Positions 457 through 40,573 of a stretch of DNA of 64,000 nucleotides are shown here, in pieces; the first letter of the stretch is position 1, and each line of letters opens with the position of its first letter. The notes under the pieces are model-generated. The model ran no database searches. It was not told where the DNA came from and saw only the letters and a program-made list of their open reading frames with translations. The position numbers and the translations under genes were made by a program. The stretch is from Alphaproteobacteria bacterium. GTDB lineage: Bacteria; Pseudomonadota; Alphaproteobacteria; CAAHEQ01; UBA3637. The DNA lies in NCBI GenBank assembly GCA_045536135.1, contig JAZSNA010000003.1, positions 45,108-109,107 on the forward strand, read 5' to 3'.

Positions 457-891
457 TTATTTCTTCAATCGCATGGCATTAGGAATCTGCTGAAAACCGA
501 ACTTTTTGTAAAATTTTGGCAAACATGGCTTCTTTGGATCATAGAACAAACTAACTGTGGCGAAGTTTTGCGATTTAACATACTTAATGATTTCTTTCAT
601 CAAGATCGTTCCAATACCTTGTCCATGATAATTTGGATGGACCACAACATCATAAATCATACACATTTCTGAATCATCTACGCATCTAGCAAAACCTACG
701 GTTTTTCTTCCATCCAATACAGACACCATAAAGGTTGATTGCTTTTTGACTACAGGCCATTGCTCCGGACGATAGTTCCCCCACTTCAACAAGGAATGGA
801 TTTCGTCTATATCTTTTGTGTTAATGCGTTTTCCAATCTTAACTATGTATGTCATACCACTTATTGTAGTAGATTTAAATTCTGAATGCAA
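457..891 (-). CDS. GNAT-family N-acetyltransferase
   Basis: 144 aa. Contains a GNAT motif-A-like segment HGQGIGTILM (Q/R-x-x-G-x-G/A), and its size is typical of GNAT enzymes. Confidence 0.6.
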   Translation of the reverse strand: MHSEFKSTTISGMTYIVKIGKRINTKDIDEIHSLLKWGNYRPEQWPVVKKQSTFMVSVLDGRKTVGFARCVDDSEMCMIYDVVVHPNYHGQGIGTILMKEIIKYVKSQNFATVSLFYDPKKPCLPKFYKKFGFQQIPNAMRLKK

Positions 892-3419: not shown

Positions 3420-4513
3420 TAGTCTCTACCTCTAATATTTTTGAACACCTGTAAATTCATACCATAAAGCTGACGCATATTCGCCTTATAGAATTGAGAA
3501 ACCATTCTTGAAATACCAATTCCGAAAGCAAAACCGCTCACTTTTTCCGGATCGTATCCTAGCCCCTTAAACACTTTAGGGTGTACCATTCCGGCTCCAA
3601 CAACAGTCACCCAACCAGCACCATGACATGCTTGACAGCCTGCGCCACCGCAGTTTTTGCATGAAACATCAGCACCAATTGATGGTTCTGTATACGGATA
3701 AAATTTAGGCTTAAAACGCACTTTTCTGTCTTCTCCATAAATAGACTTCAAAAGGTATTCCAAAGTTCCTTTTAAGTGAGAAAGTTTCACCCCTTCACCA
3801 ACCCACAATCCTTCATATTGATGGAAGCAAGCTAAATGAGTCGTATCTACGGTCTCATTTCGATAAGTTCTTCCCGGTGATACAATTTTAATTGGTAGAG
3901 TTCCATTTTTATTTGCTTCTAAAATACGAGCCTGCACAGTTGTGGTATGTGAACGCATTAATAACCCACCATCTACCCAGAAAGTGTCTTGAGCATCACG
4001 AGCTGGATGGTGTTCAGGAACATTAAGTGTATCAAAATTATAATAAGCACTTTCGACTTCTGGTCCATCGACCACTGAAAAACCTAAACGGCGTAATAAT
4101 GATGTACACTTATGTTCTACCATTGTTAATGGGTGTAATGAACCAGGCTGTTGTCCGATTTCTGGAAGGGACAAATCCATGTGTTCACCGCTAATTCTAT
4201 CTTGAATAATCTTTTCAACAACGCCTTTCTTAGCATCCTCCAATGCTTTTTCAACAGATGCACGCATAGCGTTCAATTGTTGGCCAAATTCTTGACGTTT
4301 TTCTGGAGGGATGTTTCTAATTTGATCAGCTTGTTGCTTAAGCAAACTCTTCTTACCTAGATACTTAGAACGAAGCATATCCACGTCTTGTACGGATTTA
4401 GCCTGTGCCACATCTTGTTGTAAAAGTTCTAAAATGTTTTCCATTTCTACCTCTATAAGTTGCAACTTTTCTAATAACCTGGACAGTTTATCATACGTCC
4501 ATCCAAAAGTCAA
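3419..4513 (-). CDS. pheS: phenylalanine--tRNA ligase alpha subunit
   Basis: Class II aaRS motifs FRP.YFPFTEPS / GWVTVVGAGMVHP / GFAFGIGISR. It includes the C-x2-C-x5-C-x2-C insertion seen in many bacterial PheS proteins. Confidence 0.9.
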   Translation of the reverse strand: MTFGWTYDKLSRLLEKLQLIEVEMENILELLQQDVAQAKSVQDVDMLRSKYLGKKSLLKQQADQIRNIPPEKRQEFGQQLNAMRASVEKALEDAKKGVVEKIIQDRISGEHMDLSLPEIGQQPGSLHPLTMVEHKCTSLLRRLGFSVVDGPEVESAYYNFDTLNVPEHHPARDAQDTFWVDGGLLMRSHTTTVQARILEANKNGTLPIKIVSPGRTYRNETVDTTHLACFHQYEGLWVGEGVKLSHLKGTLEYLLKSIYGEDRKVRFKPKFYPYTEPSIGADVSCKNCGGAGCQACHGAGWVTVVGAGMVHPKVFKGLGYDPEKVSGFAFGIGISRMVSQFYKANMRQLYGMNLQVFKNIRGRD

Positions 4514-4578
4514 GTTTTATTTTTTTCTTGACAAACGATAACATTGTATGTTATTATTCCGAATGAGTTCAACTGACT

Positions 4579-4654
4579 GCCCAGATAGCTCAGTTGGTAG
4601 AGCAAGGGACTGAAAATCCCTGTGTCGGCGGTCCGATTCCGTCTCTGGGCACCA
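4579..4654 (+). tRNA. tRNA-Phe (anticodon GAA)
   Basis: 76-nt cloverleaf matching E. coli tRNA-Phe (gcccagatagctcagttggtagagc...ctGAAaatccc...ggtccgattcc...gggcacca). CCA is encoded, followed by a T-run. Confidence 0.9.
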
Positions 4655-4676: not shown

Positions 4677-5828
4677 ATGAAGAAAAAGTTCAACTTTGAT
4701 ATTTCTCCGAAGTTTATTGAGTACTTTAATAAGCGTGTTAAACAGGTTTTTTTCTACACAACCGAGGCTTGCCATTTGCGTTGTAAACAGTGTTTATATA
4801 AACCGAATTTATTTTTTCAAATGAAACAACGGAAAGAAATTCCTCTTAATGAGATGATAAAACTGGCAGAAGATTTTCACAAGCTTGGCGCGATAAAGGC
4901 AACTATTATGGGTGGCGAACCATCTAAATATGGGGACCCTGAGCACCGTGATTTATGTAAGTTTATCGCTGAGCTCAGAAAAATGGGCTACACGTACATA
5001 CGAATGGATACAAATGGACAATTTGAAGATGATATGTTGGCTTTGGATGGTATGAAGAAACTTGATGAAGTGTCCTTCAGTATTGATGGTTACTCTCCAG
5101 AAACAAACGACATATTACGTGGAGAAGGAGCTTTTGAAAAATGTAGGGATAATATTAAACGTGCCATTGAGCTAGGCTATACCGTGGATATTACTTCCTG
5201 TATTCACCCAGTTCTATTGAAGAAAGATAAAAAAGGACAGCTAAATATTGAGAAAATGATTTTATTCGCACAGGATTTAGGAGTTAGAAATATTAATTTC
5301 CATGTCTTGTTTAAACATGGTTTTCCTATGGATACTTGGACAGAAGATACAGCCGTAACACCTGAAAAATGGATTGTTGCACGTGATATCCTGGCAGATG
5401 CAGTTACCAAAAACAAGTATAAGATCCATGTGCGAATTCCATATCACTTTATTTCGCGAGAAGAATTCGATAAAAATCCAAAATATTACGGATATTGTCC
5501 TGCAAAATTAGGGGAAAGGTTGTTAGTACATCCAGACGGACAAATTAGAATTTGTTCTGGGTTGATTAGTTCAAAATACTGTGTAGCCCACTACTTTGAT
5601 GGAAAAATCATATGGGAAGAAGGGTATTTAAATGAATTGAATGATCATGATTTAAATAACCCTACTCCTTGCACAAACCAAAGCAAAGGAATGCAGTGCG
5701 GCAATTATTGTCCTTTATGCTTTTCTTTCAAACCTTATCAAAAAGAGTATGTTTGGAAAAACAAACTAAAGTGGGAAGAAACTAATGATCAGAAATGCAA
5801 CATTTTCGATAACAAATCGATGCAATAG
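4677..5828 (+). CDS. radical SAM enzyme with C-terminal SPASM/twitch-like Cys cluster
   Basis: Has the CHLRCKQC (CxxxCxxC) 4Fe-4S/SAM motif and GGEPS SAM-binding motif. The C-terminal third is Cys-rich (CPAKL...C...C...CTNQSKGMQCGNYCPLC), consistent with auxiliary clusters. Confidence 0.7.
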   Translation: MKKKFNFDISPKFIEYFNKRVKQVFFYTTEACHLRCKQCLYKPNLFFQMKQRKEIPLNEMIKLAEDFHKLGAIKATIMGGEPSKYGDPEHRDLCKFIAELRKMGYTYIRMDTNGQFEDDMLALDGMKKLDEVSFSIDGYSPETNDILRGEGAFEKCRDNIKRAIELGYTVDITSCIHPVLLKKDKKGQLNIEKMILFAQDLGVRNINFHVLFKHGFPMDTWTEDTAVTPEKWIVARDILADAVTKNKYKIHVRIPYHFISREEFDKNPKYYGYCPAKLGERLLVHPDGQIRICSGLISSKYCVAHYFDGKIIWEEGYLNELNDHDLNNPTPCTNQSKGMQCGNYCPLCFSFKPYQKEYVWKNKLKWEETNDQKCNIFDNKSMQ

Positions 5829-6723
5829 TCGCTGTAAAATATGCAATATATGGAAAACAACAGATTTTTCTGATGAGCTCTCATTGTCTCAAATCAAGAA
5901 ATTAATTTCTAAACCTTATTTTAATGATCTTGATACGATTAGTATTACTGGAGGCGAACCTTTTTTAAGAAAAGATTTAACAGAGATTATTAAACTGGCT
6001 AAGAATATATTACCTAAACTTAAACGCATATTTTTAAATACAAACGCAACGATTATTGAGCCAGTCCTCGATGTATGCAAATTATGCACTTCTCTCTTTT
6101 CAGAGACAATTTTGAGTATTTCTTTGGATGGGACTGAAACAGTTCATAATAGCTTAAGGGGTATAAATAATTATAAAAATGTTTTACTGTTAATTGACAG
6201 AGCTTCTTCAATAAAAGGATTGAAGGTTTCGCTGTCCATGACAATTTCTAAAGGAAATTGTAGTTATGACGAACTTCAACATGTCCATAAATTAGCTCAG
6301 AAATACAATACAATGTTCAGTTTTAGGTTTGCAGATATGTCAAAGACATATTATAAAAATGAAGATATAGATTTGTCTCTTTCTGAAGAGGAGAAGCATA
6401 TTGTATCTAAATACATTAGTGAAAATGGTTTAGACAATGAGTTTCTTGCAGTATTAAAGGAATATATAGAGACAAAGAAAGTTCCATTTATAGTTGATGA
6501 GAACGGGTGCAATCATTGTCTTGCAGGGAAGGAGTTCATCTTCATTCACCCAAATGGATCTGTTTCCCCTTGTTTATATAGTTCACAAAAAATAAATATA
6601 GATTCAAAGCCGCCTCAAGAAGTCGAGCTCGGAAAATTTGAAAGATGTCCATGTTGCACGGACTGTGCAATTTATCCAATTTTAGAATATAAAAAAAACT
6701 TAGAAAAGGAGCAAAAATGTTAA
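5785..6723 (+). CDS. radical SAM enzyme with SPASM-like domain (second of a tandem pair)
   Basis: Has the CNSRCKIC (CxxxCxxC) and ITGGEPF motifs, plus C-terminal CNHC...C...CPCCTDC. It overlaps the upstream rSAM gene by 44 nt in a different frame. Confidence 0.7.
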   Translation: MIRNATFSITNRCNSRCKICNIWKTTDFSDELSLSQIKKLISKPYFNDLDTISITGGEPFLRKDLTEIIKLAKNILPKLKRIFLNTNATIIEPVLDVCKLCTSLFSETILSISLDGTETVHNSLRGINNYKNVLLLIDRASSIKGLKVSLSMTISKGNCSYDELQHVHKLAQKYNTMFSFRFADMSKTYYKNEDIDLSLSEEEKHIVSKYISENGLDNEFLAVLKEYIETKKVPFIVDENGCNHCLAGKEFIFIHPNGSVSPCLYSSQKINIDSKPPQEVELGKFERCPCCTDCAIYPILEYKKNLEKEQKC

Positions 6724-7391
6724 ATAAAATAAAACAAATTCTATCGGAAAAACTAAAGTCCTCTTCGCATGATTTGACTCATACATATCGGGTTTACCGG
6801 AATTGTTTAAAAATCGCAGAAAGCGAGCCTGATATAACGGTTGATATGAACGTATTAACGGTGGCGGCTTTATTACATGATATTGCTCGACCTGATGAAG
6901 ATCTTCACCCTGAATTAAAAATTGATCACGCAATTTTAGGATCAGAAAAAGCCTATGAAATTTTGATTGGTTTGGGTGCTGAAGAAGCATTTTCAAAAAA
7001 AGTCTCTGACGCTATTAAAACACATCGTTTTAGAGGAGGATTAATACCAGAGTCGATTGAAGCAAAAATTTTATTTGACGCAGATAAGCTAGATATTATA
7101 GGAAACATTGGGATTGCTCGCTCTTACATGATCGCAGGAGAGCAAAAGCAAGATATTTACAATGATTGTGATATCAACGAGTATATTAAGTTAAATTTAG
7201 TTGGGGGTGTCGCCTCTGGTAAAATTATAGATCTAAAAAAACATACACCGAATATTGAATTTCTAACAAAGGACGTAAATATTCCTGATCGTATGTTCAC
7301 TAAAACTGGACGATCCTTAGCGCAGAAGCGAATTGAACGTATGAAACAGTTTTTTGAAATCTTGAAGCAAGAAATTGATGGGAATGCATAA
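6717..7391 (+). CDS. HD-domain phosphohydrolase
   Basis: An H...HD...D arrangement (THTYRV...LLHDIARPDE...FDADKLD) matches the HD superfamily metal-dependent phosphohydrolase fold. Confidence 0.6.
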   Translation: MLNKIKQILSEKLKSSSHDLTHTYRVYRNCLKIAESEPDITVDMNVLTVAALLHDIARPDEDLHPELKIDHAILGSEKAYEILIGLGAEEAFSKKVSDAIKTHRFRGGLIPESIEAKILFDADKLDIIGNIGIARSYMIAGEQKQDIYNDCDINEYIKLNLVGGVASGKIIDLKKHTPNIEFLTKDVNIPDRMFTKTGRSLAQKRIERMKQFFEILKQEIDGNA

Positions 7392-7393
7392 CA

Positions 7394-8341
7394 ATGGAAT
7401 ATACAAAAGAATTTAATGAGTTAAAAGGTAATTTTACGCAATTTATTACTCTTCAAAAGGGGTATAAATTAGAACCTACTTTACCATTAGATTCTAAGGT
7501 TGATCCGACTGTTTTTTTAATAGGATCTTGTACCAATGTCTTTAAACCGTATTTCTTATCAAATAGGATTGAAGATTCAGGTCATGCTTTAGTCCAATCA
7601 GGTATTAACACTAAACAGCTTTCTATCACTGATATGAGTCAGCCACAACGCTTTTATTCAACATATACTATTCTTGGACTCTTACAAAGTGTTAAAAAGT
7701 TTTCAACAATATTGGATGACTCTTACGAGTTTATAACAAAAATTGCAGGGCTTGACCCTACCAAAATAAGTTTGAAAGTTAACCCGAAAGATACCGATTT
7801 TATTAGCTGTATTTCAAAAAAATACCCCTTTTTTATGGGGGACGAAAATTGTGGAAGACACCATTTTGGAAAATACAACGGAATTCCGATACAAGGACGC
7901 CACATTTCTTTTTACTATAATAATCAAAATATTGCAACGAGTTCTGTTTATGAATATAACGGTGAAGCCTTAGGAGTGGAAACAACTACAACAGCACAAA
8001 GTTTAATTGCGGCAAGAAATGGATTCAAAAACACCATGGAAGCCTCTATTTTAAATGACAAGTATGTTGCAAAAACACCACAAGAATTTCATTATTATGA
8101 CTGTGTTACAGCAATTGCAGAATTAGTACATTCAGGTATTCGTCCAAATTCTTCTCATGTACCTGGTCGCATATTAAAAAAGTACTTTTATAGGATTGCC
8201 ACGTTGGAGAAAGAACTTGGTATATCCCCTTCATATACGAAAGAATTGGTAGATTTTTATATTGAAACATCTTATCCTCCAAAAATTGTTCAATCAAGGG
8301 CTATTCCTTCACAGGTTCGAGATACATGTCACCAAAGATAA
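7394..8341 (+). CDS. stand-alone alanyl-tRNA-synthetase catalytic-core homolog (class II aaRS-like)
   Basis: By-eye alignment to the E. coli AlaRS N-terminus: F.QFI..KGY......LP.D.KVDPTVFLIGSCTNVFKPYFL versus F.DFF.SKGH...[28 protein letters not shown]. Also FFMGDENCG versus FWQMGDTGPCGPC. There is no editing or C-Ala domain. Confidence 0.45.
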   Translation: MEYTKEFNELKGNFTQFITLQKGYKLEPTLPLDSKVDPTVFLIGSCTNVFKPYFLSNRIEDSGHALVQSGINTKQLSITDMSQPQRFYSTYTILGLLQSVKKFSTILDDSYEFITKIAGLDPTKISLKVNPKDTDFISCISKKYPFFMGDENCGRHHFGKYNGIPIQGRHISFYYNNQNIATSSVYEYNGEALGVETTTTAQSLIAARNGFKNTMEASILNDKYVAKTPQEFHYYDCVTAIAELVHSGIRPNSSHVPGRILKKYFYRIATLEKELGISPSYTKELVDFYIETSYPPKIVQSRAIPSQVRDTCHQR

Positions 8342-9222
8342 TTTCTGAAATAAGAAAAGAACCATATTATAACGATCTTACATCACGTGGATATGAATAT
8401 TTAGGATATGGCTATATGCATGTCATTTTTGAAAAAAGTGATGTAATTTATAAAATCGTTCGTTCAAAATTTAAGAATTTTGATAGAAAATATGATTATG
8501 AATTCGAAAAAAATGTTTTGGATATGATGAGACTACATGGTTTTCCAACACCTAACGTACTTAAAATCTATGAAAAAGGAGACTTCTTACCTGATTTTCT
8601 TGTTTTAGCAGAAGAAAAAATATCCGGAAGCGTTAAAAATGAAAAAACACTGAAAATTGAAAATATTGAACAGATTATAGCCAGCCAAGAAAAAGCTCAC
8701 GCAATAAAATTTCCCTTTTTTGGACAACTGTATGATAAAAATTTACAATTCGAAACATGGAATGAATATTTGCTATATCTTATAAAAAGGGCTGGTAAAG
8801 CCGCCTCAATTTTTAGTATAGAATTTGATGAAAATGCCATAAAGGATTATTTTTCTAATTATTATACGTATACAAAGGAACCGTGTTTTTTAATACTAGA
8901 TCCAAATGAAGAAAATTATATCTTTGATGATCATGATAAATTGTTAGGCATTATAGATATAGATCATCCTATCTCTTTTGACCCGCTCTATGAGTGCGCT
9001 GTTTGTTTGTATGCAAAAAAATATATTTTTGATATGATGCGGATAATTAAACCAAATTATTTTAATAATCATTTAGAAACAATAAAAAAATATGCTGTTA
9101 TTCATTCCTTGGCCGATATTCTTTTTTTATATGATAAAGATAAAGAATATTTTCATAATGAAATACAAACATGCGCAAAGAATGTAGTCAAGTTTCATAA
9201 ATTCTTAAAGAGCTTTACATGA
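8326..9222 (+). CDS. protein-kinase-like (APH/choline-kinase fold) phosphotransferase
   Basis: Brenner-like catalytic segment LILDPNEENYIF (D-x4-N) followed by IIDIDH (D-x-D metal-binding), as in aminoglycoside/Kdo/heptose kinases. Confidence 0.45.
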   Translation: MSPKIISEIRKEPYYNDLTSRGYEYLGYGYMHVIFEKSDVIYKIVRSKFKNFDRKYDYEFEKNVLDMMRLHGFPTPNVLKIYEKGDFLPDFLVLAEEKISGSVKNEKTLKIENIEQIIASQEKAHAIKFPFFGQLYDKNLQFETWNEYLLYLIKRAGKAASIFSIEFDENAIKDYFSNYYTYTKEPCFLILDPNEENYIFDDHDKLLGIIDIDHPISFDPLYECAVCLYAKKYIFDMMRIIKPNYFNNHLETIKKYAVIHSLADILFLYDKDKEYFHNEIQTCAKNVVKFHKFLKSFT

Positions 9223-9232
9223 AGGGAAAAAG

Positions 9233-10753
9233 TTGATGACAAAATTTTCTGTTAGAGTATCTGAATTTGAAAAAAGCTCTCTATCACAAAAACAAATAGA
9301 GAAAATGTTTTCAATTTTAGAAAAAAAAATAAAAAGATTCCAAAAAGTAAAATTCTCTCTAATTGAGGAAATGCAAAAAGAAAATTTGAGTTATCGATTG
9401 AAAACTATCGGAAAGAATTTTGTAATTGTAATTACGCGAGAACCATCAAATGCCGAGGAAATCTGTATAGGATATCCATTTCCAATTCATTCCAGATTAA
9501 ATAAACTTTCTTCCCCAGAGAAATTCAAAATAAAGTACTTTTTACGAGGCCAAATTCTTAGAAATGCACAAAAAAGTCACTTTATTAAAAAATTGCGCGA
9601 TTTAAAATTATCAGTCAATGTATCCGAGTTAAATTCTTTGAAAGAATTTTCCGAAAAATTATCAATCTGTATGAAAAAACTTAAGCCAGATGTTCTAAAT
9701 TATATTGATTTATACCATTTTTTGGGTGATTCTTTTCTCAGTACATATATGTTAGATGCTTTTGCACGCGATTATTCTATTCCCAAGAAAATAATATACA
9801 GCCAAAGCTATAAACACCTAAATGGATTTTACAATGCAAAGCCTTTAGAAAATCTCGGGCAATCACCAGGAAAAAGTATCTTCATATTCTCCGATTTATT
9901 GGATATAGATGATGCTTTTGTTCAAAATTCATTTTTTGACAGTCAAAAGGATGGATTATACATTATAAATAGTAGAAATTGTTTTTTTACCAAAGTAGAA
10001 AAAAATGTACATGTATTTTCTCTTAAAGGAAAAGAAGACGTCCTATTGACTCAAAATAATATTTTTGATTACATGAAGAATTGTATCAGACCTTTTGTAA
10101 AGAAGACTTCATTTCCGAATATAAATCCTTTACATAAGCAACCTTTAGGTAGGATTTATATTAATCCGTATTCTTCTCTAGCTCAAAAATCTTTAACAAT
10201 TGAGGAAATAAAAAAACTAATAGATCATATTCGGCTTATTATGCCAGAAATGGAAATTTATATTCCATATGGATATAATGATTACACAAAAAAATACACT
10301 CAAAAAATTAAGGAAAAAGTATCAAAAATCAATTTAATTGAAGATAATGGTATTTATGACTTATATAAGAGGATAAAAGATAACGGTATTGACCTTGTTA
10401 TTACTGTTGACACCGCTCTAACCCATATTCTAACAAAATATGGTATAAGAAACATAGTTTTATATAAGGATGGTTTTTGGGATCAAAAGTCGTTACAATC
10501 GTTAGTGGCAGAATCACCCATTGCTTTCTGTAGTCAATATTATTGGCAGTACCCGTTTATTTTGAAATGTGAAAATGACATAGAAAAGATATGTGAGTTA
10601 ATTGGTTTCTTTTACAGGATTTCAGAACGTCCTGTGATTCCAGATTTAGAACTCGAGCAATCCTGCTTCAGTCAAGCTACAAACAAAAGAATAAGAAAGA
10701 TTAGTAACAAACTGGGATGTAATAAGAAATTAACTCAAGAATTTTCTAGTTAG
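9233..10753 (+). CDS. hypothetical 506-aa protein with GT9 (heptosyltransferase)-like C-terminal segment
   Basis: DLVITVDTALTHILTKYGIRNIVLY resembles the GT9 donor-binding motif (lvi.nDSGpmHlAaAlg.P.valfG). The N-terminal ~350 aa has no recognisable motif. Confidence 0.3.
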   Translation: MMTKFSVRVSEFEKSSLSQKQIEKMFSILEKKIKRFQKVKFSLIEEMQKENLSYRLKTIGKNFVIVITREPSNAEEICIGYPFPIHSRLNKLSSPEKFKIKYFLRGQILRNAQKSHFIKKLRDLKLSVNVSELNSLKEFSEKLSICMKKLKPDVLNYIDLYHFLGDSFLSTYMLDAFARDYSIPKKIIYSQSYKHLNGFYNAKPLENLGQSPGKSIFIFSDLLDIDDAFVQNSFFDSQKDGLYIINSRNCFFTKVEKNVHVFSLKGKEDVLLTQNNIFDYMKNCIRPFVKKTSFPNINPLHKQPLGRIYINPYSSLAQKSLTIEEIKKLIDHIRLIMPEMEIYIPYGYNDYTKKYTQKIKEKVSKINLIEDNGIYDLYKRIKDNGIDLVITVDTALTHILTKYGIRNIVLYKDGFWDQKSLQSLVAESPIAFCSQYYWQYPFILKCENDIEKICELIGFFYRISERPVIPDLELEQSCFSQATNKRIRKISNKLGCNKKLTQEFSS

Positions 10754-11360
10754 ATTCTTTGTAGAGTTGTGGATTTAGGTTCGGGTCATTGTACATTTTA
10801 AAAGAATGATAAAGTTTTATTTGTTTTCTGCCCTCAACACACTCTTTAATAAGAGATTTGGTTGCTCTTATTAAATCTTTTTGTTGTTGGGATAGAACCT
10901 TTAATTTTGTTTTACATGACATTAGATGGTCAGCTGATACGTCTTTTCTGATTGTTTGTTCTTTCATATGATAAATTTTCAAATTTAAAATAGATAATCT
11001 ATCAATAATCATGCCTATAGTTTCTGTGTGTACAGGCACATTTTGTTTAATCTGAGTACAAATCAGAGGAACAAAAATCGTATCTATTTTTTCAAAATAA
11101 TTCGTGCGTTCTTGGTTTAGTACATCAATTTTTCGTTTGCATTCAACTAGTTTTTTATCGGAGATGTCTTTTCTTCTCACAATATCTTCCGTATGCCATA
11201 ATAAATAATTTGAAGCATGATTTGCTTTAACCGTAAGTAATAGACTGTTTCCACTATACTTGATCGCCTTTTGATATCCAATTTTATGCCAATGCTTAGT
11301 TAATTCCGTTTGTTTTAATACGATTGAATCTATTAATCTATATAATTTTTGCATATTCAT
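10746..11360 (-). CDS. hypothetical protein (only minus-strand gene in the island)
   Basis: 204-aa ORF convergent with the upstream operon (8-nt stop overlap). No motif recognised. It could be a regulator or immunity-type function. Confidence 0.3.
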   Translation of the reverse strand: MNMQKLYRLIDSIVLKQTELTKHWHKIGYQKAIKYSGNSLLLTVKANHASNYLLWHTEDIVRRKDISDKKLVECKRKIDVLNQERTNYFEKIDTIFVPLICTQIKQNVPVHTETIGMIIDRLSILNLKIYHMKEQTIRKDVSADHLMSCKTKLKVLSQQQKDLIRATKSLIKECVEGRKQIKLYHSFKMYNDPNLNPQLYKESN

Positions 11361-11452
11361 TTTATATTCCTTTTGATTTTATCAGTCTTAGATGAACAGT
11401 AACAAACAATTTAAAAAAAATCAACTTTTTTTAATGGTTTCGGCTAAACCTC

Positions 11453-11481
11453 TTGACAATAAAAGATAAAAAAAGTATTCT
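11453..11481 (+). promoter_or_regulatory. sigma70-like promoter TTGACA-17-TATTCT for the distal half of the island
   Basis: TTGACA at 11453-11458 and TATTCT at 11476-11481 with a 17-nt spacer. A strong AAAGGAGG RBS precedes the ATG at 11508. Confidence 0.4.
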
Positions 11482-11507
11482 TAAGGCAATAATCCAAAGG
11501 AGGAAAC

Positions 11508-12437
11508 ATGTCAATCTTTGCATTTAAACTTCGAAACCGTTTTATAAAACCATACGCAACCGGATATCTGCCCACACAGGATGGACATCAAATTTTTTAT
11601 CAAGAAGTTGGCAATCCAAAAGGGGAACCAGTCATAGTGTTTCATGGTGGCCCCGGAAGTCAATGCTATCCATTTTTTGCTTGCACATTTAATCTAAAAA
11701 AACAACGAGTTATCATGTTCGATCAACGCGGATGTGGCAAATCTAAATTCGATAAGCCGCTCTATAAAAATACTTCACAAAATACGATAAATGACGCTAT
11801 AAGACTTCTGGAACATTTAAATATTTCTGAAAAAATAGTTTGCACAGGAGGTTCTTGGGGGTCAACATTAGCGATATTATTTGCAGAAACATATCCTCAA
11901 AAAGTCAAAAAGATAATTGTAAATTGTATATTTTTAGGTCGAAAAAAAGATATAGAAAATATGACGCCGATTGCTTCATATTTTTACCCAGATGCTGTCG
12001 AAACCGTTAAGAAAGCTGCAAATGGAAAGGATTTGGATAGATATTATAGTGAATTGTTAGCTTCAAATAAAAGATCTGACCAAGAAAGGGCTGTCCAGTA
12101 CTATAAAAAACTTGAAAAAACAGCATGTGATGCCTCTTTGATAGTGGATTTTTCAAAAGGCGAAATATCCGATAAAGATATTTTGAAATTCCAAATTTTT
12201 ATGCACTATAAATACAATAATTATTTCTTGAAAGACAATCAATTACTAGTCAATGCTAAGAATATAAAAAATATTCCTACAGAAATTTATCAAAATCGCT
12301 TAGATTTCTGTTGTCCACCATATCAAGCTTATGAATTACATAAAGCTTTACCTAAAGCAAAATTCTATCTGATTCCTGATCGTGGACATGGAAGCGATAT
12401 GCTCTTTTATGAAATGTACAAAAATAATTTGGCGTAA
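11508..12437 (+). CDS. alpha/beta-hydrolase, proline iminopeptidase (S33)-like
   Basis: HGGPGS oxyanion motif and GGSWGS nucleophile elbow (G-x-S-x-G), with a C-terminal His, as in prolyl aminopeptidases. Confidence 0.55.
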   Translation: MSIFAFKLRNRFIKPYATGYLPTQDGHQIFYQEVGNPKGEPVIVFHGGPGSQCYPFFACTFNLKKQRVIMFDQRGCGKSKFDKPLYKNTSQNTINDAIRLLEHLNISEKIVCTGGSWGSTLAILFAETYPQKVKKIIVNCIFLGRKKDIENMTPIASYFYPDAVETVKKAANGKDLDRYYSELLASNKRSDQERAVQYYKKLEKTACDASLIVDFSKGEISDKDILKFQIFMHYKYNNYFLKDNQLLVNAKNIKNIPTEIYQNRLDFCCPPYQAYELHKALPKAKFYLIPDRGHGSDMLFYEMYKNNLA

Positions 12438-12452
12438 TTATAGGGGTTTTAC

Positions 12453-13370
12453 TTGAAGAAAAATAAAACATACAAAGAAATATGCCTTAGCGAATGTGAT
12501 AATGGGATAATTGGACATTTTTTATTGTGGGTTTATAAAAAATTTAATTATCCCCGTTTTTTATGGACACTTAAATTACGTTATTTAATTTTAGAGTATC
12601 TTGCGCGCAAATATGCCCTTTCTTCAATGGGAAAGCATTGTGAGATGCGAGCAAACTATATAAAAGAACTCTATAAAAATTGTAAAAAAGGACTATTTCC
12701 TAAAGGGCATTACACTTACAATAACGCTTTTACAAAGAAATATTTTTCATCTAAAAATAGGGGCTCTATTTTCCTAGTTATGGATGTTTTCTTTGATCAC
12801 AAAAAGAACGTTGAATACGGTAATTATTTATTAGAGGTTTTTGACCCTATTCATCGTCTAGACCTACAAAATTTTTACAAGAAATGGGATTCAAATGCTA
12901 AAAACATTAATTTTTATCTGTGGCTGGAAAAAAACTATCAGAGCTCACATATCCCGGAAATTGAATACTTAAGTGAATCTGAAAAAAGAAAGTGTGAACT
13001 TGTTAATCGTTTAGGAAAACTCTATGAAAAGAGAACAGGCAAACCTCTTACCACTGAACCGGATAAGGAATATATATTCATTTTGGATGATCAAAATCGA
13101 TTGTATGGAATTTATTCTTCAGAGCCTATTCGTCACACATCGCTATCATTAGGGAAACCAGTAATCTGCGTGGGTGATATTTCTGTTCGAAAAGGACAAC
13201 TTCTTAAAATATCTTTAGACAGTGGGCATTATCATCCAAAACTTCAGACATTAGTAGCTTTTAACAATTTTATTCAAATTCCAAAGAAAACAGTTATAGA
13301 ATTCTATGATGGTAATATGAAAACATCATCGACATGGAATGTAATCTCACATCAGATTGATATAGTTTGA
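12453..13370 (+). CDS. hypothetical protein
   Basis: 305-aa ORF with a TTG start and an AGGGG RBS. No recognisable motif. Confidence 0.3.
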   Translation: MKKNKTYKEICLSECDNGIIGHFLLWVYKKFNYPRFLWTLKLRYLILEYLARKYALSSMGKHCEMRANYIKELYKNCKKGLFPKGHYTYNNAFTKKYFSSKNRGSIFLVMDVFFDHKKNVEYGNYLLEVFDPIHRLDLQNFYKKWDSNAKNINFYLWLEKNYQSSHIPEIEYLSESEKRKCELVNRLGKLYEKRTGKPLTTEPDKEYIFILDDQNRLYGIYSSEPIRHTSLSLGKPVICVGDISVRKGQLLKISLDSGHYHPKLQTLVAFNNFIQIPKKTVIEFYDGNMKTSSTWNVISHQIDIV

Positions 13371-13428
13371 CTTATAAAACAAACTATTATATAATCTCCA
13401 TAGCTTTAATAGTAAAAGGAGAGTATTT

Positions 13429-14220
13429 ATGATTAGATATTACTGTAGTGGATTTGATATAAACAATGCTTTTGGACATGGTCTTGGGGCAATGTTTAAG
13501 TCTGAATTAAAAGACACAAAAAGCATTGTTTATATTCCTGGCGGCTATGATAAAATTGAAAAGGCAAAAACAAAGTATGTCCCGATTTTTACTGAGCATT
13601 TTAGAAACTCTGGAATTGAATTTGAAACAGTACACTTACTTACTCCTGAGTTAGGATCAAGACGGGCAAACGAGCTGTGTAAAAACGCCGATTTTATTAT
13701 GCTAATGGGAGGATGTCCATTCCAACAAAAGAAATTATGTGAAAAACTGGAGATCATGGACCAATTAAAAAACTACAATGGCATTATGTTAGGCCTCAGC
13801 GCGGGAGCGATGCTGATGTCGAAACATGTTATAGTTACGCCTTGCAGTGAGGAGTATCCAGATTTTCGTGTGGAAGATGGTTTAAATCTTGATAGTATAT
13901 CAATATTTCCACATAATAACACAACTCTACTTGAATATCCGGATAAACTAATATCAGGCGATGAAACATATAAAAAATCCGATTTGCTGACCGTATCCAA
14001 ACAATACGGCCCATTTTATTTATTACAAGATAATCCTAAACCAAATGGGACAACAGATGTAAGTGCAATAAAATCTTCCAATGGTAAATTAGAATTTTAT
14101 ACGGAAAACGATGGTAGAATTTGGCTGGTCGATAAAGATGTTCACCTGGTATGTGATCCTAAAAAATCACACCACAATAACGAATTATTGCGTTTTGCAG
14201 GGATAAAAGAAAGAGAATAA
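13429..14220 (+). CDS. peptidase S51 (peptidase E / cyanophycinase-like) family protein
   Basis: MLMGGCPF...GIMLGLSAGAMLM matches the S51 GG-x-F...G-x-S-A-G nucleophile region. Confidence 0.4.
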   Translation: MIRYYCSGFDINNAFGHGLGAMFKSELKDTKSIVYIPGGYDKIEKAKTKYVPIFTEHFRNSGIEFETVHLLTPELGSRRANELCKNADFIMLMGGCPFQQKKLCEKLEIMDQLKNYNGIMLGLSAGAMLMSKHVIVTPCSEEYPDFRVEDGLNLDSISIFPHNNTTLLEYPDKLISGDETYKKSDLLTVSKQYGPFYLLQDNPKPNGTTDVSAIKSSNGKLEFYTENDGRIWLVDKDVHLVCDPKKSHHNNELLRFAGIKERE

Positions 14221-20142: not shown

Positions 20143-20144
20143 TA

Positions 20145-20945: not shown

Positions 20946-20956
20946 CTTATAAATCC

Positions 20957-40421: not shown

Positions 40422-40573
40422 ACAAGACACCCTCAAACCCCAGTAAATACAATGGTTTCCGAGTATGGGTGACCAGTAAAGAAAAAGGTGTTTCGCTAGA
40501 AAAATCGGGCGGCTTGCGTCCCCGCATACGAACAGAGCCCAGGAAGGACCCGTTGCCCCGGAGCTGTCCAAGA

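What the first reader, a model, noticed from the sequence alone, without database searches (positions are those of the whole stretch)
4677..14220. AT-rich 9.5-kb island at tRNA-Phe combining tandem rSAM/SPASM enzymes, an AlaRS-core homolog, HD hydrolase, kinase, GT9-like protein and two peptidases
This gene combination does not match any pathway I can name. Two SPASM-type radical SAM enzymes are usually peptide (RiPP) or cofactor maturases. A truncated class II aaRS (AlaRS catalytic core) suggests amino-acid activation or transfer without tRNA charging. The HD hydrolase, PKL kinase and GT9-like domain point to phosphorylated sugar or nucleotide chemistry (compare Kdo/heptose kinases and heptosyltransferases of the LPS inner core). 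The S33 and S51 peptidases suggest peptide trimming. Tight packing with overlapping stops and starts argues for a single operon, with an internal promoter at 11453. Composition is clearly different from the flanks, and the location (23 nt after tRNA-Phe, directly abutting a prophage) marks it as horizontally acquired. It could be a small-molecule or aminoacylated glycoconjugate pathway, a RiPP-like system whose precursor is too short for the ORF track, or an unrecognised defence system.
Basis: partly seen in the sequence, partly recalled or inferred. Interest (0 to 1): 0.85.

Follow-up and report, generated by a model that had tools for sequence, protein, structure and literature searches.

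The report
Mobile radical-SAM/heptosyltransferase cassette tied to PheRS
The island is a real, previously undescribed gene cassette that recurs in uncultured gut and environmental bacteria and is repeatedly wired to phenylalanyl-tRNA synthetase genes. It most likely makes an aminoacylated nucleotide-sugar-type antimetabolite aimed at tRNA synthetases, but no chemistry has been tested.

Summary
All ten ORFs, tRNA-Phe 22 nt upstream, the low G+C and the abutting prophage are real. The domain calls are right, although four are weak on the window protein alone.

Comparative genomics changes the picture in four ways.
1. The conserved unit is not ten genes. It is rSAM1, rSAM2, HD, a PKL kinase, a GT9-like protein and usually DUF4254, plus an optional AlaRS-like + S51 pair. 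The prolyl aminopeptidase (g8) and g9 are lineage-specific.
2. Gram-positive-type versions add an HldC-like heptose-1-P adenylyltransferase. The GT9-like protein folds like WaaC. Both point to ADP-heptose-type chemistry.
3. The AlaRS-like protein belongs to a family of about 555 clusters of 300-400 aa AlaRS cores. The window copy has lost AlaRS's ATP/alanine residues, as AcmF of ascamycin biosynthesis has.
4. The cassette lies next to PheRS genes in at least four different arrangements. In one, pheST + tRNA-Phe sit inside the cassette. Other class II synthetases also occur nearby. So pheST/tRNA-Phe is probably part of the system, not just an integration site.

S51, S66, GNAT and prolyl-iminopeptidase neighbours are all families known to process aminoacyl-nucleotide antibiotics.

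Best reading (confidence about 0.4): a biosynthetic and immunity cassette for a synthetase-directed aminoacyl-nucleotide(-sugar). Rivals are a tRNA modification system, a defence system and envelope glycan modification. The RiPP reading is not supported.

The parts
457..891 (-). GNAT acetyltransferase downstream of pheT (possible accessory or immunity gene; membership uncertain)
   Evidence: Pfam Acetyltransf_1 at 55.8 bits. GNAT (MccE2) is a known immunity family for aminoacyl-nucleotides (PMC8323819). Another GNAT follows the cassette in L047.
1344..3419 (-). pheT, PheRS beta subunit. A short form (691 aa) that lacks the N-terminal B1-B2/tRNA_bind part.
   Evidence: Pfam B3_4, B5, tRNA_synthFbeta and FDX-ACB. 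TIGR00472 scores 388.5 bits (cutoff 402.65) and aligns only from model position 157. The same truncation is seen in cassette-linked PheT of L045.
3419..4513 (-). pheS, PheRS alpha subunit, divergent from tRNA-Phe and the cassette
   Evidence: TIGR00468 at 279.6 bits, above its cutoff of 237. PheS/PheT or PheS-like genes adjoin the cassette in L006, L036, L040-L043, L045-L047 and L057.
4528..4557 (+). Best sigma-70-like promoter match (TTGACA-18-TATTAT, TG-extended), upstream of tRNA-Phe. It may drive tRNA-Phe together with g1-g6.
   Evidence: 11/12 match, the best in the region. Only 22 nt and no terminator-like site lie between the tRNA and g1. This is a consensus match only.
4579..4654 (+). 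tRNA-Phe (GAA), immediately upstream of the first cassette gene
   Evidence: ARAGORN and Rfam at 68.5 bits. In L036 and L006 a tRNA-Phe also directly precedes the first cassette gene, which there is the AlaRS-like gene.
4677..5828 (+). g1 = rSAM1, a radical SAM enzyme with one C-terminal auxiliary Cys cluster (twitch-like). It is the most conserved cassette protein.
   Evidence: CX3CX2C at residues 32-39. Invariant C274, C293, C332 and C348. It is 57-92% identical across lineages. Only generic similarity to MoaA and Tes.
5785..6723 (+). g2 = rSAM2, a radical SAM enzyme with a SPASM-like C-terminal Cys motif
   Evidence: CX3CX2C at residues 13-20. Invariant C245, C263, C288, C290, C291 and C294. 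Best solved relatives are SkfB, YydG, CteB and MoaA.
6717..7391 (+). g3 = HD-domain phosphohydrolase (YedJ-like)
   Evidence: Pfam HD at 53 bits; PRK10119 at E 1e-21. H22...H54-D55 motif. It is 69-84% identical in relatives. In the minimal clusters HAD or histidine-phosphatase domains occupy this position.
7394..8341 (+). g4 = truncated AlaRS-like protein (catalytic core only) with a remodelled active site
   Evidence: The family profile hits AlaRS 1RIQ at E 5.7e-19 over residues 6-319. 74 of 99 family members hit PF01411. The family has 555 50%-clusters, nearly all 300-400 aa. In g4 the AlaRS residues are changed: R->N, W->A, N->T, D->E.
8326..9222 (+). g5 = protein-kinase-like (APH / fructosamine-kinase type) small-molecule kinase
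   Evidence: Invariant K, D192-x-N...N197 and D211-x-D213. The orthologue in L043 hits APH at 42 bits. An FN3K/APH kinase (L026) or a PPDK_N-type protein (L042) occupies this position elsewhere.
9233..10753 (+). g6 = basic N-terminal domain of about 150 aa fused to a GT9-type (heptosyltransferase-like) GT-B glycosyltransferase
   Evidence: AF2 model with pLDDT 89 and pTM 0.88. Top Foldseek PDB hits are WaaC and the Veillonella GT9 (E 1.6e-7, TM 0.5-0.6 on the target). GT9-like motifs GDS165-167 and DTALTH393-398. The N-terminal domain has pI 10.
10746..11360 (-). g7 = DUF4254 protein, a recurrent partner of GT9 enzymes
   Evidence: Pfam at 169 bits. Present in W, L001 and L036, and as two half-size ORFs between rSAM1 and rSAM2 in L040-L045, L047 and L054. 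DUF4254 is linked to RfaF in Flavobacteria (PMC9425974).
11508..12437 (+). g8 = S33 prolyl-aminopeptidase-like alpha/beta hydrolase. A lineage-specific add-on.
   Evidence: TIGR01249 at E 1.6e-68 (231 bits, cutoff 260). GGSWG at 114-118. Absent from all other cassettes. A proline iminopeptidase dealanylates ascamycin (Sudo 1996, cited in PMC4322347).
12453..13370 (+). g9 = ORFan protein of 305 aa, found only in the window's species
   Evidence: No Pfam, NCBIfam, PADLOC or PDB hit. Only its own 90% cluster was found among 5.8e9 proteins.
13429..14220 (+). g10 = S51 peptidase (PepE/MccG family), the partner of the AlaRS-like gene
   Evidence: Pfam S51 at 37.8 bits. GLSAG nucleophile motif at 122-126 and His162. 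S51 co-occurs with AlaRS-like in 9 distinct loci. The S51 peptidase MccG hydrolyses aminoacyl-nucleotides (PMC9239234).

Best explanation
The window carries the extended form of a mobile biosynthetic cassette.

Core. The core genes are rSAM1, rSAM2, an HD phosphatase, a PKL kinase, a GT9-type transferase and DUF4254. I infer that the core builds and transfers a radical-SAM-tailored, ADP-activated sugar or adenosine-nucleotide scaffold. The steps would be phosphorylation, dephosphorylation, adenylylation and glycosyl transfer. The adenylylation would be done by a cassette HldC-like enzyme where the host lacks one, and presumably by the host's own enzyme in proteobacteria (not tested).

Optional pair. 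I infer that the AlaRS-derived protein g4 has lost the residues for ATP/alanine activation and acts like AcmF of ascamycin biosynthesis. It would hold the adenosine-containing scaffold in the former adenylate pocket and receive an aminoacyl group from an aminoacyl-tRNA. The product would be an aminoacyl-nucleotide(-sugar) that mimics an aminoacyl-adenylate and targets a class II aminoacyl-tRNA synthetase, PheRS in this lineage. The S51 peptidase would hydrolyse or neutralise that bond as self-immunity or processing. Here the prolyl-aminopeptidase-like g8 and perhaps the GNAT would add to that role.

pheST and tRNA-Phe. The adjacent pheST and tRNA-Phe would supply the aminoacyl donor and/or a tolerant target enzyme.

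Shown: gene content, folds and motifs, co-conservation, the linkage to synthetase genes and to hydrolase families.
Inferred: every substrate, the product and the target.
For: 1. Co-conservation in different orders and contexts.
- W, L001, L022, L024/L025/L039 and L036 all hold rSAM1, rSAM2, HD, AlaRS-like, kinase, S51 and GT9-like.
- L013-L021 hold only the five core genes, at 92/62/84/62/55% identity to the window.
- Environmental loci hold HD-rSAM1-DUF4254-rSAM2-kinase-GT9-like.

2. Small-molecule nucleotide-sugar logic.
- The HldC/RfaE-domain-II adenylyltransferase scores E 1e-47 to 1e-51 in L024, L026 and L011.
- g6 has a GT9 fold.
- Where the main cassette has HD, the minimal AlaRS-like/S51 clusters have HAD or His-phosphatase, and other kinase types (PKL, FN3K, PPDK_N) occupy the kinase position, which suggests non-homologous displacement.
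- NUDIX genes are adjacent in L022, L036 and L043.
- The minimal clusters pair a viperin-like rSAM and a phosphatase with AlaRS-like and S51.

3. g4 is an AlaRS core (E 5.7e-19) that lacks the Arg, Trp, Asn and Asp of the AlaRS site. This parallels AcmF, which uses Ala-tRNA to aminoacylate a nucleoside (PMC12945691).

4. AlaRS-like and S51 are present together in 9 distinct loci. Both are absent from view in the 5-gene group and in five environmental loci.

5. Synthetase linkage.
- pheS-pheT run operonically into the cassette in L042, L045, L047 and L057, with gaps of 5-75 nt and no rplT/infC context.
- They are divergent from it in L046 and in the window.
- pheST + tRNA-Phe are embedded between two cassette halves in L036.
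- Monomeric PheS-like ligases flank it in L040, L041 and L043. One is NCBIfam's 'PheS-related mystery ligase SrmL' at 445 bits.
- glyQS adjoin it in L026/L048; ProRS and GlyRS are near it in L044.

6. Gene clusters for synthetase inhibitors typically carry a synthetase gene (AbmK, AgnB2, MetRS, AspRS) and immunity enzymes MccF (S66), MccE2 (GNAT) or MccG (S51) (PMC8323819, PMC9239234). S51 is in the cassette, S66 is in L043, and GNATs are in L047 and the window. A proline iminopeptidase dealanylates ascamycin.
Against: - No exporter or uptake-related gene was seen in any of about 20 loci. That is unusual for a secreted antibiotic.
- No enzyme is identified that would form a phosphoramidate- or sulfamate-type stable adenylate mimic.
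- The 5-gene version has neither a synthetase-type gene nor a hydrolase. The core product may therefore have a role of its own that is unrelated to synthetases.
- Whether the linked pheST is a second or resistant copy is unknown. In the window it may be the only PheRS.
- Some environmental loci may come from small genomes, where synthetase genes are dense. L044 has GlyRS, GlnA and ProRS together, which weakens part of the linkage argument.
- The S66 and GNAT neighbours score only as generic family members.
- Two relatives lie in defence islands, which fits a defence role at least as well.
- The g4 structure model was poor (pLDDT 57), so the pocket comparison rests on alignment only.
Confidence: 0.4

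Rival explanations
1. A tRNA (tRNA-Phe) hypermodification system. The radical SAM enzymes remodel a base. The GT9-like enzyme glycosylates it from an ADP-sugar. The truncated AlaRS-like protein aminoacylates the sugar or diol, as GluQRS does on queuosine. The kinase and HD write and erase a phosphate. The linked PheRS copes with the modified tRNA.
For: - tRNA-Phe directly precedes the first cassette gene in the window, L036 and L006.
- PheRS and other synthetase genes are linked to the cassette.
- Other neighbours belong to RNA or translation: RtcA in L043, MnmA in L012, RsmB in L013-L021, a YbaK-like tRNA_edit gene in L017 and ArgRS in L036.
- GT9-like and DUF4254 are basic proteins, and the g6 N-terminal domain has pI 10.
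- From general knowledge, each enzyme class has a precedent in tRNA modification: TYW1, MiaB and QueE (radical SAM), GluQRS (truncated synthetase), QTMAN (GT-B) and ArkI (PKL kinase).
Against: - Several parts are typical of free small-molecule metabolism. These are HldC-like, the beta-PGM-like HAD, NUDIX, a viperin-like rSAM, and three phosphatase superfamilies occupying the same position in different cluster types.
- No RNA-binding domain (PUA, THUMP, TRAM) was detected.
- No tRNA gene lies in the environmental or L024-type cassettes.
- The tight AlaRS-like/S51 coupling and the patchy, mobile distribution are unusual for tRNA modification enzymes.
- High pI is common in AT-rich genomes.
Confidence: 0.15
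2. An unrecognised anti-phage or conflict system. On infection, the cassette makes a modified nucleotide or ADP-sugar, or glycosylates or aminoacylates a phage or host translation component, and so blocks replication or translation.
For: - In L001 the cassette is followed by AbiL (E 2e-64), PDC-S02 (E 7e-83), an HNH protein and DUF4238-Pers.
- In L024 it is preceded by two PDC-S02 genes, an LmuA-like fragment and a Mob_Pre relaxase.
- In L025 it is the cargo of an element with Bro-N, Mob_Pre, an HTH repressor and a serine recombinase.
- In the window it lies between a tRNA and a prophage.
- No exporter is present, which fits an intracellular product.
- The rSAMs have weak viperin similarity, and viperin is the top NCBIfam hit for the rSAMs of L012 and L026.
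Against: - No protein matches any PADLOC model beyond generic rSAM similarity.
- GT9-like, AlaRS-like and rSAM1 were not found in IMG/VR viral contigs or in GenBank phages or plasmids.
- Several contexts are ordinary chromosome: L013-L021, L022 and the environmental loci.
- The linkage to PheRS genes is not explained.
- A 6-8 enzyme anabolic pathway with no sensor or effector domain is atypical for defence systems.
Confidence: 0.2
3. A cell-envelope glycan modification module of the LPS inner-core type. It makes a modified heptose, attaches it with the GT9-like enzyme, and phosphorylates and aminoacylates it, as WaaC/WaaF plus the WaaP/KdkA kinases do and as glycine or alanine substituents decorate LPS cores.
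For: - GT9 fold, PKL kinase motifs and an HldC-like adenylyltransferase.
- DUF4254 is linked to RfaF in Flavobacteria.
- All proteins are predicted to be cytoplasmic, as in core assembly.
Against: - The cassette is never inside an LPS or polysaccharide locus.
A decayed copy (L011) and a minimal AlaRS-like/S51 cluster (L012) are in Bacilli MAGs, and other minimal clusters are in Patescibacteria, which lack LPS.
- It has no flippase, ligase, polymerase or lipid-carrier genes.
- The PheRS linkage and the S51/AlaRS-like pair are unexplained.
Confidence: 0.1
4. A RiPP or peptide-derived cofactor cluster. The two SPASM-type rSAM maturases and the peptidases act on an unannotated short precursor.
For: Both rSAMs have C-terminal auxiliary-cluster motifs, and their best solved relatives include the peptide maturases SkfB, YydG and CteB. 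Peptidases are present.
Against: - Intergenic space within g1-g7 is 2-22 nt. No conserved small ORF accompanies the cassette in any of about 20 loci with shuffled gene orders.
- There is no RRE/PqqD domain.
- Only one peptidase (S51) is conserved, and it tracks the AlaRS-like gene, not the rSAMs.
- The cassette-associated enzymes HldC-like, HAD and NUDIX are nucleotide-sugar enzymes.
Confidence: 0.03

Closest known systems
Ascamycin biosynthesis (AcmD AlaRS homolog, AcmF truncated AlaRS-like transferase, AcmE alpha/beta-hydrolase)
   Same: g4, like AcmF, is a truncated AlaRS with only the N-terminal core. It lacks key ATP/alanine-activation residues and has Glu in place of the alanine-binding Asp (PMC12945691). 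A dedicated synthetase gene and hydrolases that can remove the aminoacyl group sit alongside. A proline iminopeptidase is the classical ascamycin-dealanylating enzyme.
   Different: There are no sulfamate or halogenation genes. The nucleoside part would be made by two rSAMs, HD, a kinase and a GT9-like enzyme, which ascamycin lacks. g4 (315 aa) is shorter than an AlaRS core plus full tRNA-recognition domain. Direct sequence relatedness to AcmF could not be tested because no sequence was available. The linked synthetase is PheRS, not AlaRS.
Trojan-horse synthetase inhibitors: microcin C, albomycin, agrocin 84
   Same: These clusters carry a synthetase gene (AbmK SerRS, AgnB2 LeuRS, MetRS or AspRS in relatives) and immunity enzymes of the S51 (MccG), S66 (MccF) and GNAT (MccE2) families. 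They have synthetase-like adenylation proteins (AgnA, AgnC1) and SAM-dependent tailoring, and they are carried on mobile elements (PMC8323819, PMC9239234). From my own knowledge, albomycin also uses two radical SAM enzymes and a nucleoside kinase.
   Different: There is no MccB-type ThiF enzyme, no precursor peptide, no siderophore NRPS and no exporter. The GT9-like + DUF4254 + HldC-like module has no counterpart. None of the cassette's biosynthetic proteins is an orthologue of any Mcc, Abm or Agn enzyme (no NCBIfam equivalog hits).
ADP-heptose pathway and GT9 heptosyltransferases (GmhA/HldE/GmhB/HldC, WaaC/WaaF, BAHT TibC)
   Same: g6 has the GT9 GT-B fold and nucleotide-sugar motifs. Some cassette versions encode an HldC-like adenylyltransferase and a HAD phosphatase or mutase. 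A kinase and a phosphatase are always present.
   Different: There is no GmhA isomerase and no PfkB-type HldA kinase. The kinase is PKL-type and the phosphatase is HD-type. g6 carries an extra basic N-terminal domain of about 150 aa. Two rSAM enzymes are obligatory. The genomic context is never an LPS locus.
Septacidin/spicamycin (heptosyl-adenine-glycine nucleoside antibiotics)
   Same: It is a natural product assembled from sedoheptulose-7-P via ADP-heptose, AMP and an amino acid (PMC9978623). This is the same chemical logic: an ADP-heptose-derived sugar, adenine nucleotide and aminoacyl group.
   Different: The enzyme families are different (SepE/SepF, aminotransferase, VOC epimerase). It has no rSAMs, no AlaRS-like protein and no synthetase linkage.
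Oxetanocin/albucidin (HD phosphohydrolase + radical SAM acting on adenine nucleotides) and prokaryotic viperins
   Same: A radical SAM enzyme is paired with an HD phosphohydrolase to make a nucleoside analogue (the albucidin paper PMC7074753 surfaced; the mechanism is from my own knowledge). The minimal AlaRS-like clusters carry viperin-like rSAMs plus a phosphatase.
   Different: OxsB is cobalamin-dependent, whereas g1 and g2 are twitch/SPASM-type. Viperin scores are far below the family cutoff (76-80 bits against 180). The kinase, GT9-like and DUF4254 genes have no counterpart.
NCBIfam NF051887 'PheS-related mystery ligase SrmL'
   Same: One of the monomeric PheS-like proteins flanking the cassette in L043 is a full-score member (445 bits, cutoff 300).
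   Different: The window itself has ordinary two-subunit pheS/pheT, not SrmL. No literature on SrmL was found.

Membership tests
Radical SAM superfamily (g1, g2) | CX3CX2C motif binding the SAM-cleaving [4Fe-4S] cluster; Pfam PF04055 above cutoff | tested here: met
   Motifs at g1 residues 32-39 and g2 residues 13-20. PF04055 scores 62 and 64.8 bits against a cutoff of 29.5.
SPASM/twitch subclass of radical SAM enzymes | C-terminal domain with conserved Cys ligating one (twitch) or two (SPASM) auxiliary clusters; match to the SPASM model | tested here: inconclusive
   Invariant C-terminal Cys are present: 4 in g1 and 6 in g2, each including a CX12-13GX4C element. The Pfam SPASM model did not match at E<=0.01.
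Alanyl-tRNA synthetase (functional AlaRS) | Class II catalytic core homologous to AlaRS | tested here: met
   The family profile hits 1RIQ AlaRS at E 5.7e-19 over residues 6-319. 74 of 99 members hit PF01411.
Alanyl-tRNA synthetase (functional AlaRS) | Conserved ATP/alanine-binding residues (QxCxR Arg, Trp/Asn of EIWNLVF, Asp of DTGMGLER), plus tRNA-recognition, editing and C-Ala domains | tested here: not met
   g4 has N, A, T and E at these positions. It is 315 aa and ends soon after the core.
AcmF-type AlaRS-like aminoacyl-tRNA-dependent transferase | Truncated AlaRS lacking activation residues (Asp->Glu), using Ala-tRNA to aminoacylate a nucleoside | tested here: inconclusive
   The truncation, loss of residues and D->E change are shared (against PMC12945691). 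Sequence relatedness to AcmF and use of aminoacyl-tRNA could not be tested.
Glycosyltransferase family 9 | GT-B fold closest to heptosyltransferases; ADP-heptose-binding motifs; Pfam PF01075 | tested here: met
   Top Foldseek hits are WaaC and a Veillonella GT9, on a model with pLDDT 89. GDS and DTALTH motifs are present. PF01075 scores only 19.7 bits (cutoff 22) for the window protein, but six family members carry precomputed PF01075 hits.
Glycosyltransferase family 9 | Uses ADP-L,D-heptose as donor on a Kdo/heptose (or protein Ser) acceptor | not testable with these tools
   Support is contextual only: an HldC-like adenylyltransferase lies in L024, L026 and L011.
HD phosphohydrolase | H...HD metal-binding motif; PF01966 | tested here: met
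   53.3 bits against a cutoff of 22. H22 and H54-D55 are present.
APH / protein-kinase-like phosphotransferase | Catalytic loop D-x-x-x-x-N, Mg-binding D, ATP Lys; PF01636 | tested here: met
   D192...N197, D211/D213 and the conserved Lys are invariant in 5 orthologues. The window protein scores 21.2 bits (cutoff 23.2), and the L043 orthologue scores 42 bits.
Peptidase S51 (PepE / cyanophycinase / MccG) | PF03575 above cutoff; GxSAG nucleophile and catalytic His | tested here: met
   37.8 bits against a cutoff of 23.9. GLSAG at 122-126 and His162. Hydrolysis of aminoacyl-nucleotides, the MccG activity, was not testable.
Prolyl aminopeptidase (S33) | TIGR01249 equivalog score; GxSxG nucleophile | tested here: inconclusive
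   231.1 bits against a cutoff of 259.75. Abhydrolase_1 scores 90 bits. GGSWG is present.
Gene clusters for aminoacyl-nucleotide synthetase inhibitors (microcin C / albomycin / agrocin 84 / ascamycin type) | Cluster-linked synthetase gene | tested here: met
   PheRS, a PheS-like ligase, GlyRS or ProRS lies adjacent to or inside the cassette in at least 4 arrangements. Whether these are second or resistant copies was not testable.
Gene clusters for aminoacyl-nucleotide synthetase inhibitors (microcin C / albomycin / agrocin 84 / ascamycin type) | Immunity hydrolase or acetyltransferase of the MccG (S51), MccF (S66) or MccE2 (GNAT) families | tested here: met
   S51 is in the cassette. S66 is in L043. 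GNATs are in L047 and the window. These are family-level matches only.
Gene clusters for aminoacyl-nucleotide synthetase inhibitors (microcin C / albomycin / agrocin 84 / ascamycin type) | Exporter and an uptake (Trojan-horse) moiety | tested here: not met
   No MFS or ABC exporter lies next to the cassette in any locus read. The RND efflux genes about 4 kb upstream in L013-L021 are separated from the cassette by four unrelated genes (RsmB, two hypotheticals, nitroreductase).
Known anti-phage defence systems (PADLOC-DB 2.0) | Match of component proteins to a system's models | tested here: not met
   Only generic pVip similarity for g1 and g2 (E 1e-9 to 1e-12). Nothing for g3-g10.
RiPP cluster | Co-located precursor peptide gene (and usually an RRE) | tested here: not met
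   No conserved small ORF and no intergenic room within the cassette.

The most novel reading that the evidence does not exclude
The cassette, together with its linked PheRS and tRNA-Phe, may define a new family of mobile systems built around class II aminoacyl-tRNA synthetases. It would use radical-SAM and ADP-heptose-type chemistry either to make a new class of aminoacyl-nucleotide-sugar antimetabolite in human-gut and environmental bacteria, or to install a glycosyl-aminoacyl hypermodification on tRNA-Phe. Both routes are currently unknown. It would also assign a first function to DUF4254, to the roughly 555-cluster family of stand-alone AlaRS cores, and to NCBI's 'mystery ligase' SrmL.
Probability: 0.35. 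Interest if true: 0.9.

Novelty: new variant of a known kind. Interest (0 to 1): 0.78.

Why it matters
If the best model holds, this is a new enzymatic route to synthetase-directed antimetabolites: two radical SAM enzymes, a GT9-type transferase and a repurposed AlaRS core. It is carried by uncultured human-gut and rumen Alphaproteobacteria and by a Mob_Pre/serine-recombinase mobilisable element.

It offers testable functions for several 'unknowns':
- DUF4254;
- a large family of truncated AlaRS paralogs;
- SrmL;
- PheT variants that lack the B2 domain.

It would add a natural PheRS-targeting scaffold to a short list of Trojan-horse synthetase inhibitors. Even if the target is not a synthetase, the conserved coupling of ADP-heptose-type chemistry with radical SAM enzymes and synthetase genes is unexplained biology. 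ADP-heptose metabolites are innate-immune agonists in the gut, which adds interest.

Tried and rejected
- Exact-sequence look-up of g4 failed.
- A single-sequence PDB search of g4 was only marginal (E 0.05). A family profile was needed.
- The AF2 model of g4 from 4 sequences was too poor to use (pLDDT 57). I did not run a fold search on it.
- The afdb50 fold library was unavailable.
- A profile of 4 GT9-like sequences found nothing in PDB by sequence. Structure was needed.
- rSAM1 and rSAM2 profiles gave only generic PDB relatives.
- IMG/VR scans for GT9-like, AlaRS-like and rSAM1 found nothing. A5 was too diverse to derive search patterns.
- GenBank phages and PLSDB plasmids hold no cassette.
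- No att repeat of tRNA-Phe or tRNA-Pro was found.
- Rfam found only the tRNA.
- Literature searches for the gene combination, DUF4254 function and SrmL found nothing relevant.
- g9 has no relatives and no annotation.
- Rejected: LPS-core pathway (wrong contexts and hosts).
- Rejected: RiPP (no precursor).
- Rejected: prophage cargo as the general explanation (absent from viral collections, and present in non-phage contexts).
- Rejected: a functional AlaRS (catalytic residues lost).

Full report
**1. Observation**

- g1-g6 are co-directional, with overlaps of 7-44 nt or gaps of 2-10 nt.
- g7 converges on g6.
- g8-g10 follow after a 147-nt divergent spacer.

tRNA-Phe(GAA) is at 4579-4654, 22 nt before the g1 start. 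pheS and pheT lie divergently upstream.

G+C is 0.30-0.34 in the island. It is 0.38 in pheST, 0.36 in the far flank and 0.42 in the prophage.

A lambda-like prophage lysis and tail module begins about 70 nt after g10.

Pfam and NCBIfam confirm radical SAM (x2), HD, DUF4254, an S33 prolyl-aminopeptidase-like hydrolase and S51. The AlaRS, APH and GT9 calls are sub-threshold on the window proteins, and I confirmed them in other ways (section 3). All catalytic motifs are intact. PADLOC gives nothing specific.

**2. Which genes form the unit**

g4 has only four word-sharing homologs among 5.8 billion proteins. Their contigs, and those of g1 and g6 relatives, show a recurring cassette.

- Rumen and gut Alphaproteobacteria MAGs (L001, L022): rSAM1-rSAM2-HD-AlaRS-like-kinase-S51-GT9-like-f9, followed by DUF4254 on the minus strand in L001. 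No DUF4254 was detected in L022.
- A mobilisable element with a Mob_Pre relaxase and a serine recombinase (L024/L025/L039): HAD-GT9-like-rSAM1-rSAM2-HldC-like-HD-AlaRS-like-kinase-S51.
- L026/L048: two extra rSAMs, an FN3K-type kinase, HldC-like and a GT2.
- Close gut relatives (L013-L021): only rSAM1-rSAM2-HD-kinase-GT9-like, at another chromosomal site. Identities to the window are 92/62/84/62/55%.
- Environmental metagenomes: HD-rSAM1-DUF4254 (as two half-size ORFs)-rSAM2-kinase(-)-GT9-like.
- Minimal clusters in Patescibacteria and Bacilli MAGs: AlaRS-like + S51 with a viperin-like rSAM and a HAD or histidine phosphatase.

g8 and the ORFan g9 occur only in the window's own species. rSAM1 is strikingly conserved, at 57-92% identity.

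**3. Individual proteins**

*g6.* The AlphaFold model is confident (pLDDT 89, pTM 0.88). Its best PDB matches are the GT9 heptosyltransferases WaaC and a Veillonella GT9. It adds a basic N-terminal domain of about 150 aa.

*The extra nucleotidyltransferase.* In L024, L026 and L011 it is an HldC/RfaE-domain-II heptose-1-phosphate adenylyltransferase (E 1e-47 to 1e-51, just under the equivalog cutoff). With the beta-PGM-like HAD, the kinase and the phosphatase, this reproduces the logic of ADP-heptose synthesis followed by GT9 transfer. DUF4254 was already noted as linked to RfaF (PMC9425974).

*g4.*
- An exhaustive profile search finds 555 50%-identity clusters of stand-alone proteins, nearly all 300-400 aa.
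- A 99-member profile matches Aquifex AlaRS at E 5.7e-19 over residues 6-319.
- 74 of 99 members hit PF01411.
- In the alignment, g4 and its cassette clade replace the AlaRS Arg of QxCxR with Asn, Trp/Asn of EIWNLVF with Ala/Thr, and the alanine-binding Asp with Glu.
- The Patescibacteria copies (L010, P0004) keep both the Arg and the Asp. The Bacilli copy (L012) keeps the Asp but has Lys at the Arg position.

This mirrors AcmF. AcmF is a truncated AlaRS-like enzyme that has lost the activation residues (D232E) and uses Ala-tRNA to aminoacylate a nucleoside sulfamate. It works alongside a dedicated AlaRS homolog (AcmD) and a hydrolase (AcmE) (PMC12945691).

*The rSAMs.* They show only generic similarity to MoaA, SkfB, YydG, Tes and viperin.

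**4. The turn: linkage to synthetase genes**

I tagged 27 metagenomic rSAM1 loci with my own HMMs and with Pfam/NCBIfam. PheRS genes adjoin the cassette in several unrelated arrangements.

- pheS-pheT run straight into HD-rSAM1 in L042, L045, L047 and L057. The gaps are 5-75 nt, and there is no rplT/infC context.
- pheT-pheS are divergent from the cassette in L046 and in the window.
- Monomeric PheS-like ligases (tRNA-synt_2d + FDX-ACB) lie on one or both sides in L040, L041 and L043. One of them is NCBIfam's 'PheS-related mystery ligase SrmL' at 445 bits.
- In L036 (gut lineage) the order is rSAM1-rSAM2-HD-S51-GT9-like | pheT pheS (-) | tRNA-Phe-AlaRS-like-kinase | DUF4254(-). Here pheST and tRNA-Phe sit inside the cassette.
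- L006 has pheS, then tRNA-Phe, then AlaRS-like and kinase.
- glyQS adjoin the AlaRS-like gene in L026/L048. ProRS and GlyRS lie near the cassette in L044.

Both the window PheT and the L045 PheT align to the bacterial PheT model only from position 157, so both lack the B1-B2 part.

Only the five-gene group has no synthetase-type gene nearby. The tRNA-Phe/pheST neighbourhood of the window is therefore probably functional. No att repeat supports simple integration. The best promoter match lies upstream of the tRNA, which is followed by g1 without a terminator.

**5. Accessory hydrolases**

AlaRS-like and S51 co-occur in nine distinct loci. Both are missing from view in the five-gene group and in five environmental loci (L041, L042, L043, L045, L047). 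L026 is the one clear exception.

S51 peptidases (MccG) are experimentally shown immunity enzymes that cleave the aminoacyl-nucleotide bond of processed microcin C (PMC9239234). S66 (MccF) and GNAT (MccE2) are the other classical immunity families. Synthetase genes embedded in clusters (AbmK, AgnB2, MetRS, AspRS) are a hallmark of synthetase-inhibitor pathways (PMC8323819).

- An S66 peptidase and a NUDIX gene follow the cassette in L043.
- A GNAT follows it in L047.
- A GNAT lies downstream of pheT in the window.
- g8 belongs to the proline-iminopeptidase family, a member of which dealanylates ascamycin.

**6. Model**

I commit, at about 0.4, to a biosynthesis-plus-immunity cassette for an aminoacyl-nucleotide(-sugar) antimetabolite directed at class II synthetases. 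The steps are:
- the core enzymes make an rSAM-tailored, ADP-activated sugar or adenosine scaffold;
- g4 adds an aminoacyl group from aminoacyl-tRNA;
- S51 (with g8 and the GNAT) limits self-intoxication or processes the product;
- pheST and tRNA-Phe provide the donor and/or a tolerant target.

Only gene content, folds, motifs and linkages are shown. All chemistry is inferred.

Points against the model:
- no exporter next to the cassette in any locus;
- the five-gene form lacks both synthetase and immunity genes;
- it is unknown whether the linked PheRS is a second copy;
- some environmental loci may be gene-dense small genomes;
- two relatives lie in defence islands with AbiL, PDC-S02, DUF4238 and an LmuA-like gene.

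**7. Rivals**

- tRNA-Phe hypermodification (0.15). It explains the tRNA and synthetase linkage and the RNA-type neighbours. It fits poorly with the free-metabolite enzymes.
- An unrecognised defence or conflict system (0.2). The context supports it, and so does the lack of an exporter. But nothing matches a known system, the cassette is absent from viral collections, and PheRS linkage is unexplained.
- Envelope glycan modification (0.1). The contexts and hosts are wrong.
- RiPP (0.03). There is no precursor and no room for one.

**8. Novelty**

No database family, defence catalogue or paper describes this gene combination. No cultured plasmid or phage record carries it.

I rate it a new variant of a known kind, namely synthetase-linked nucleotide antimetabolite clusters, with wholly different enzymology. 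There is a substantial chance (about 0.35) that it is something more novel.

Noticed in passing
window 18619-21793 (- strand): Three tandem tail-fibre-like genes (507, 301 and 278 aa) share a near-identical N-terminus (MEERLQAVVSQAETDGS...) and diverge at the C-terminus. Direct repeats D1 and D2 span them (160-300 nt, 74-76% identical). This looks like a cassette of alternative receptor-binding proteins in the prophage.
   Followed up: no
window 40568-40937: Four copies of a 26-nt repeat (GATAGTATCTCGTTAGTATGATACTA-like). Three are spaced 51 nt apart. They lie in a prophage intergenic region and look like iterons or operators.
   Followed up: no
window 14289-46909: The prophage runs from the lysis genes (including a probable lipobox spanin at about 14289-14483) to near tRNA-Pro (46833-46909, - strand). 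I found no att repeats. In one same-species assembly (L032) only a five-gene tail remnant is left next to the S51 gene, so the island-phage junction is older than the intact prophage.
   Followed up: partly
window 1344-3419; L045 7232-9208: The cassette-linked PheT proteins of the window (691 aa) and of distant environmental loci (655-662 aa) both lack the N-terminal B1-B2/tRNA_bind part. They align to TIGR00472 only from position 157 and score just under its cutoff.
   Followed up: partly
L040-L045, L047, L054 (e.g. L043 6615-7073): In the environmental cassettes DUF4254 is consistently encoded as two adjacent ORFs (about 58-75 aa and about 82-90 aa) between rSAM1 and rSAM2. This is either a genuine split gene or a recoding site.
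   Followed up: no
L011 8031-10258 (Bacilli MAG VLC_121): A decayed copy of the cassette. It holds fragments of rSAM2 (241 aa), HD (143 aa) and AlaRS-like (85 aa) around an intact-looking HldC-like gene. rSAM1, kinase, GT9-like and S51 are absent.
   Followed up: partly
L043 10911-12077 (-): A monomeric PheS-like protein next to the cassette is a full-score member of NCBIfam NF051887, 'PheS-related mystery ligase SrmL'. I found no literature on this curated family of unknown function.
   Followed up: partly
L022 2777-3796; L022 1256-2557; L036 8714-9316; L043 13595-14011: A SAM synthetase (MetK-like) and NUDIX hydrolases lie directly beside several cassette copies. They may be further accessory genes, for SAM supply and for hydrolysis of nucleoside-diphosphate-X compounds.
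   Followed up: no
window 12453-13370: g9 is an ORFan. Among 5.8 billion proteins only its own 90%-identity cluster was found, and no domain or structure match exists.
   Followed up: yes
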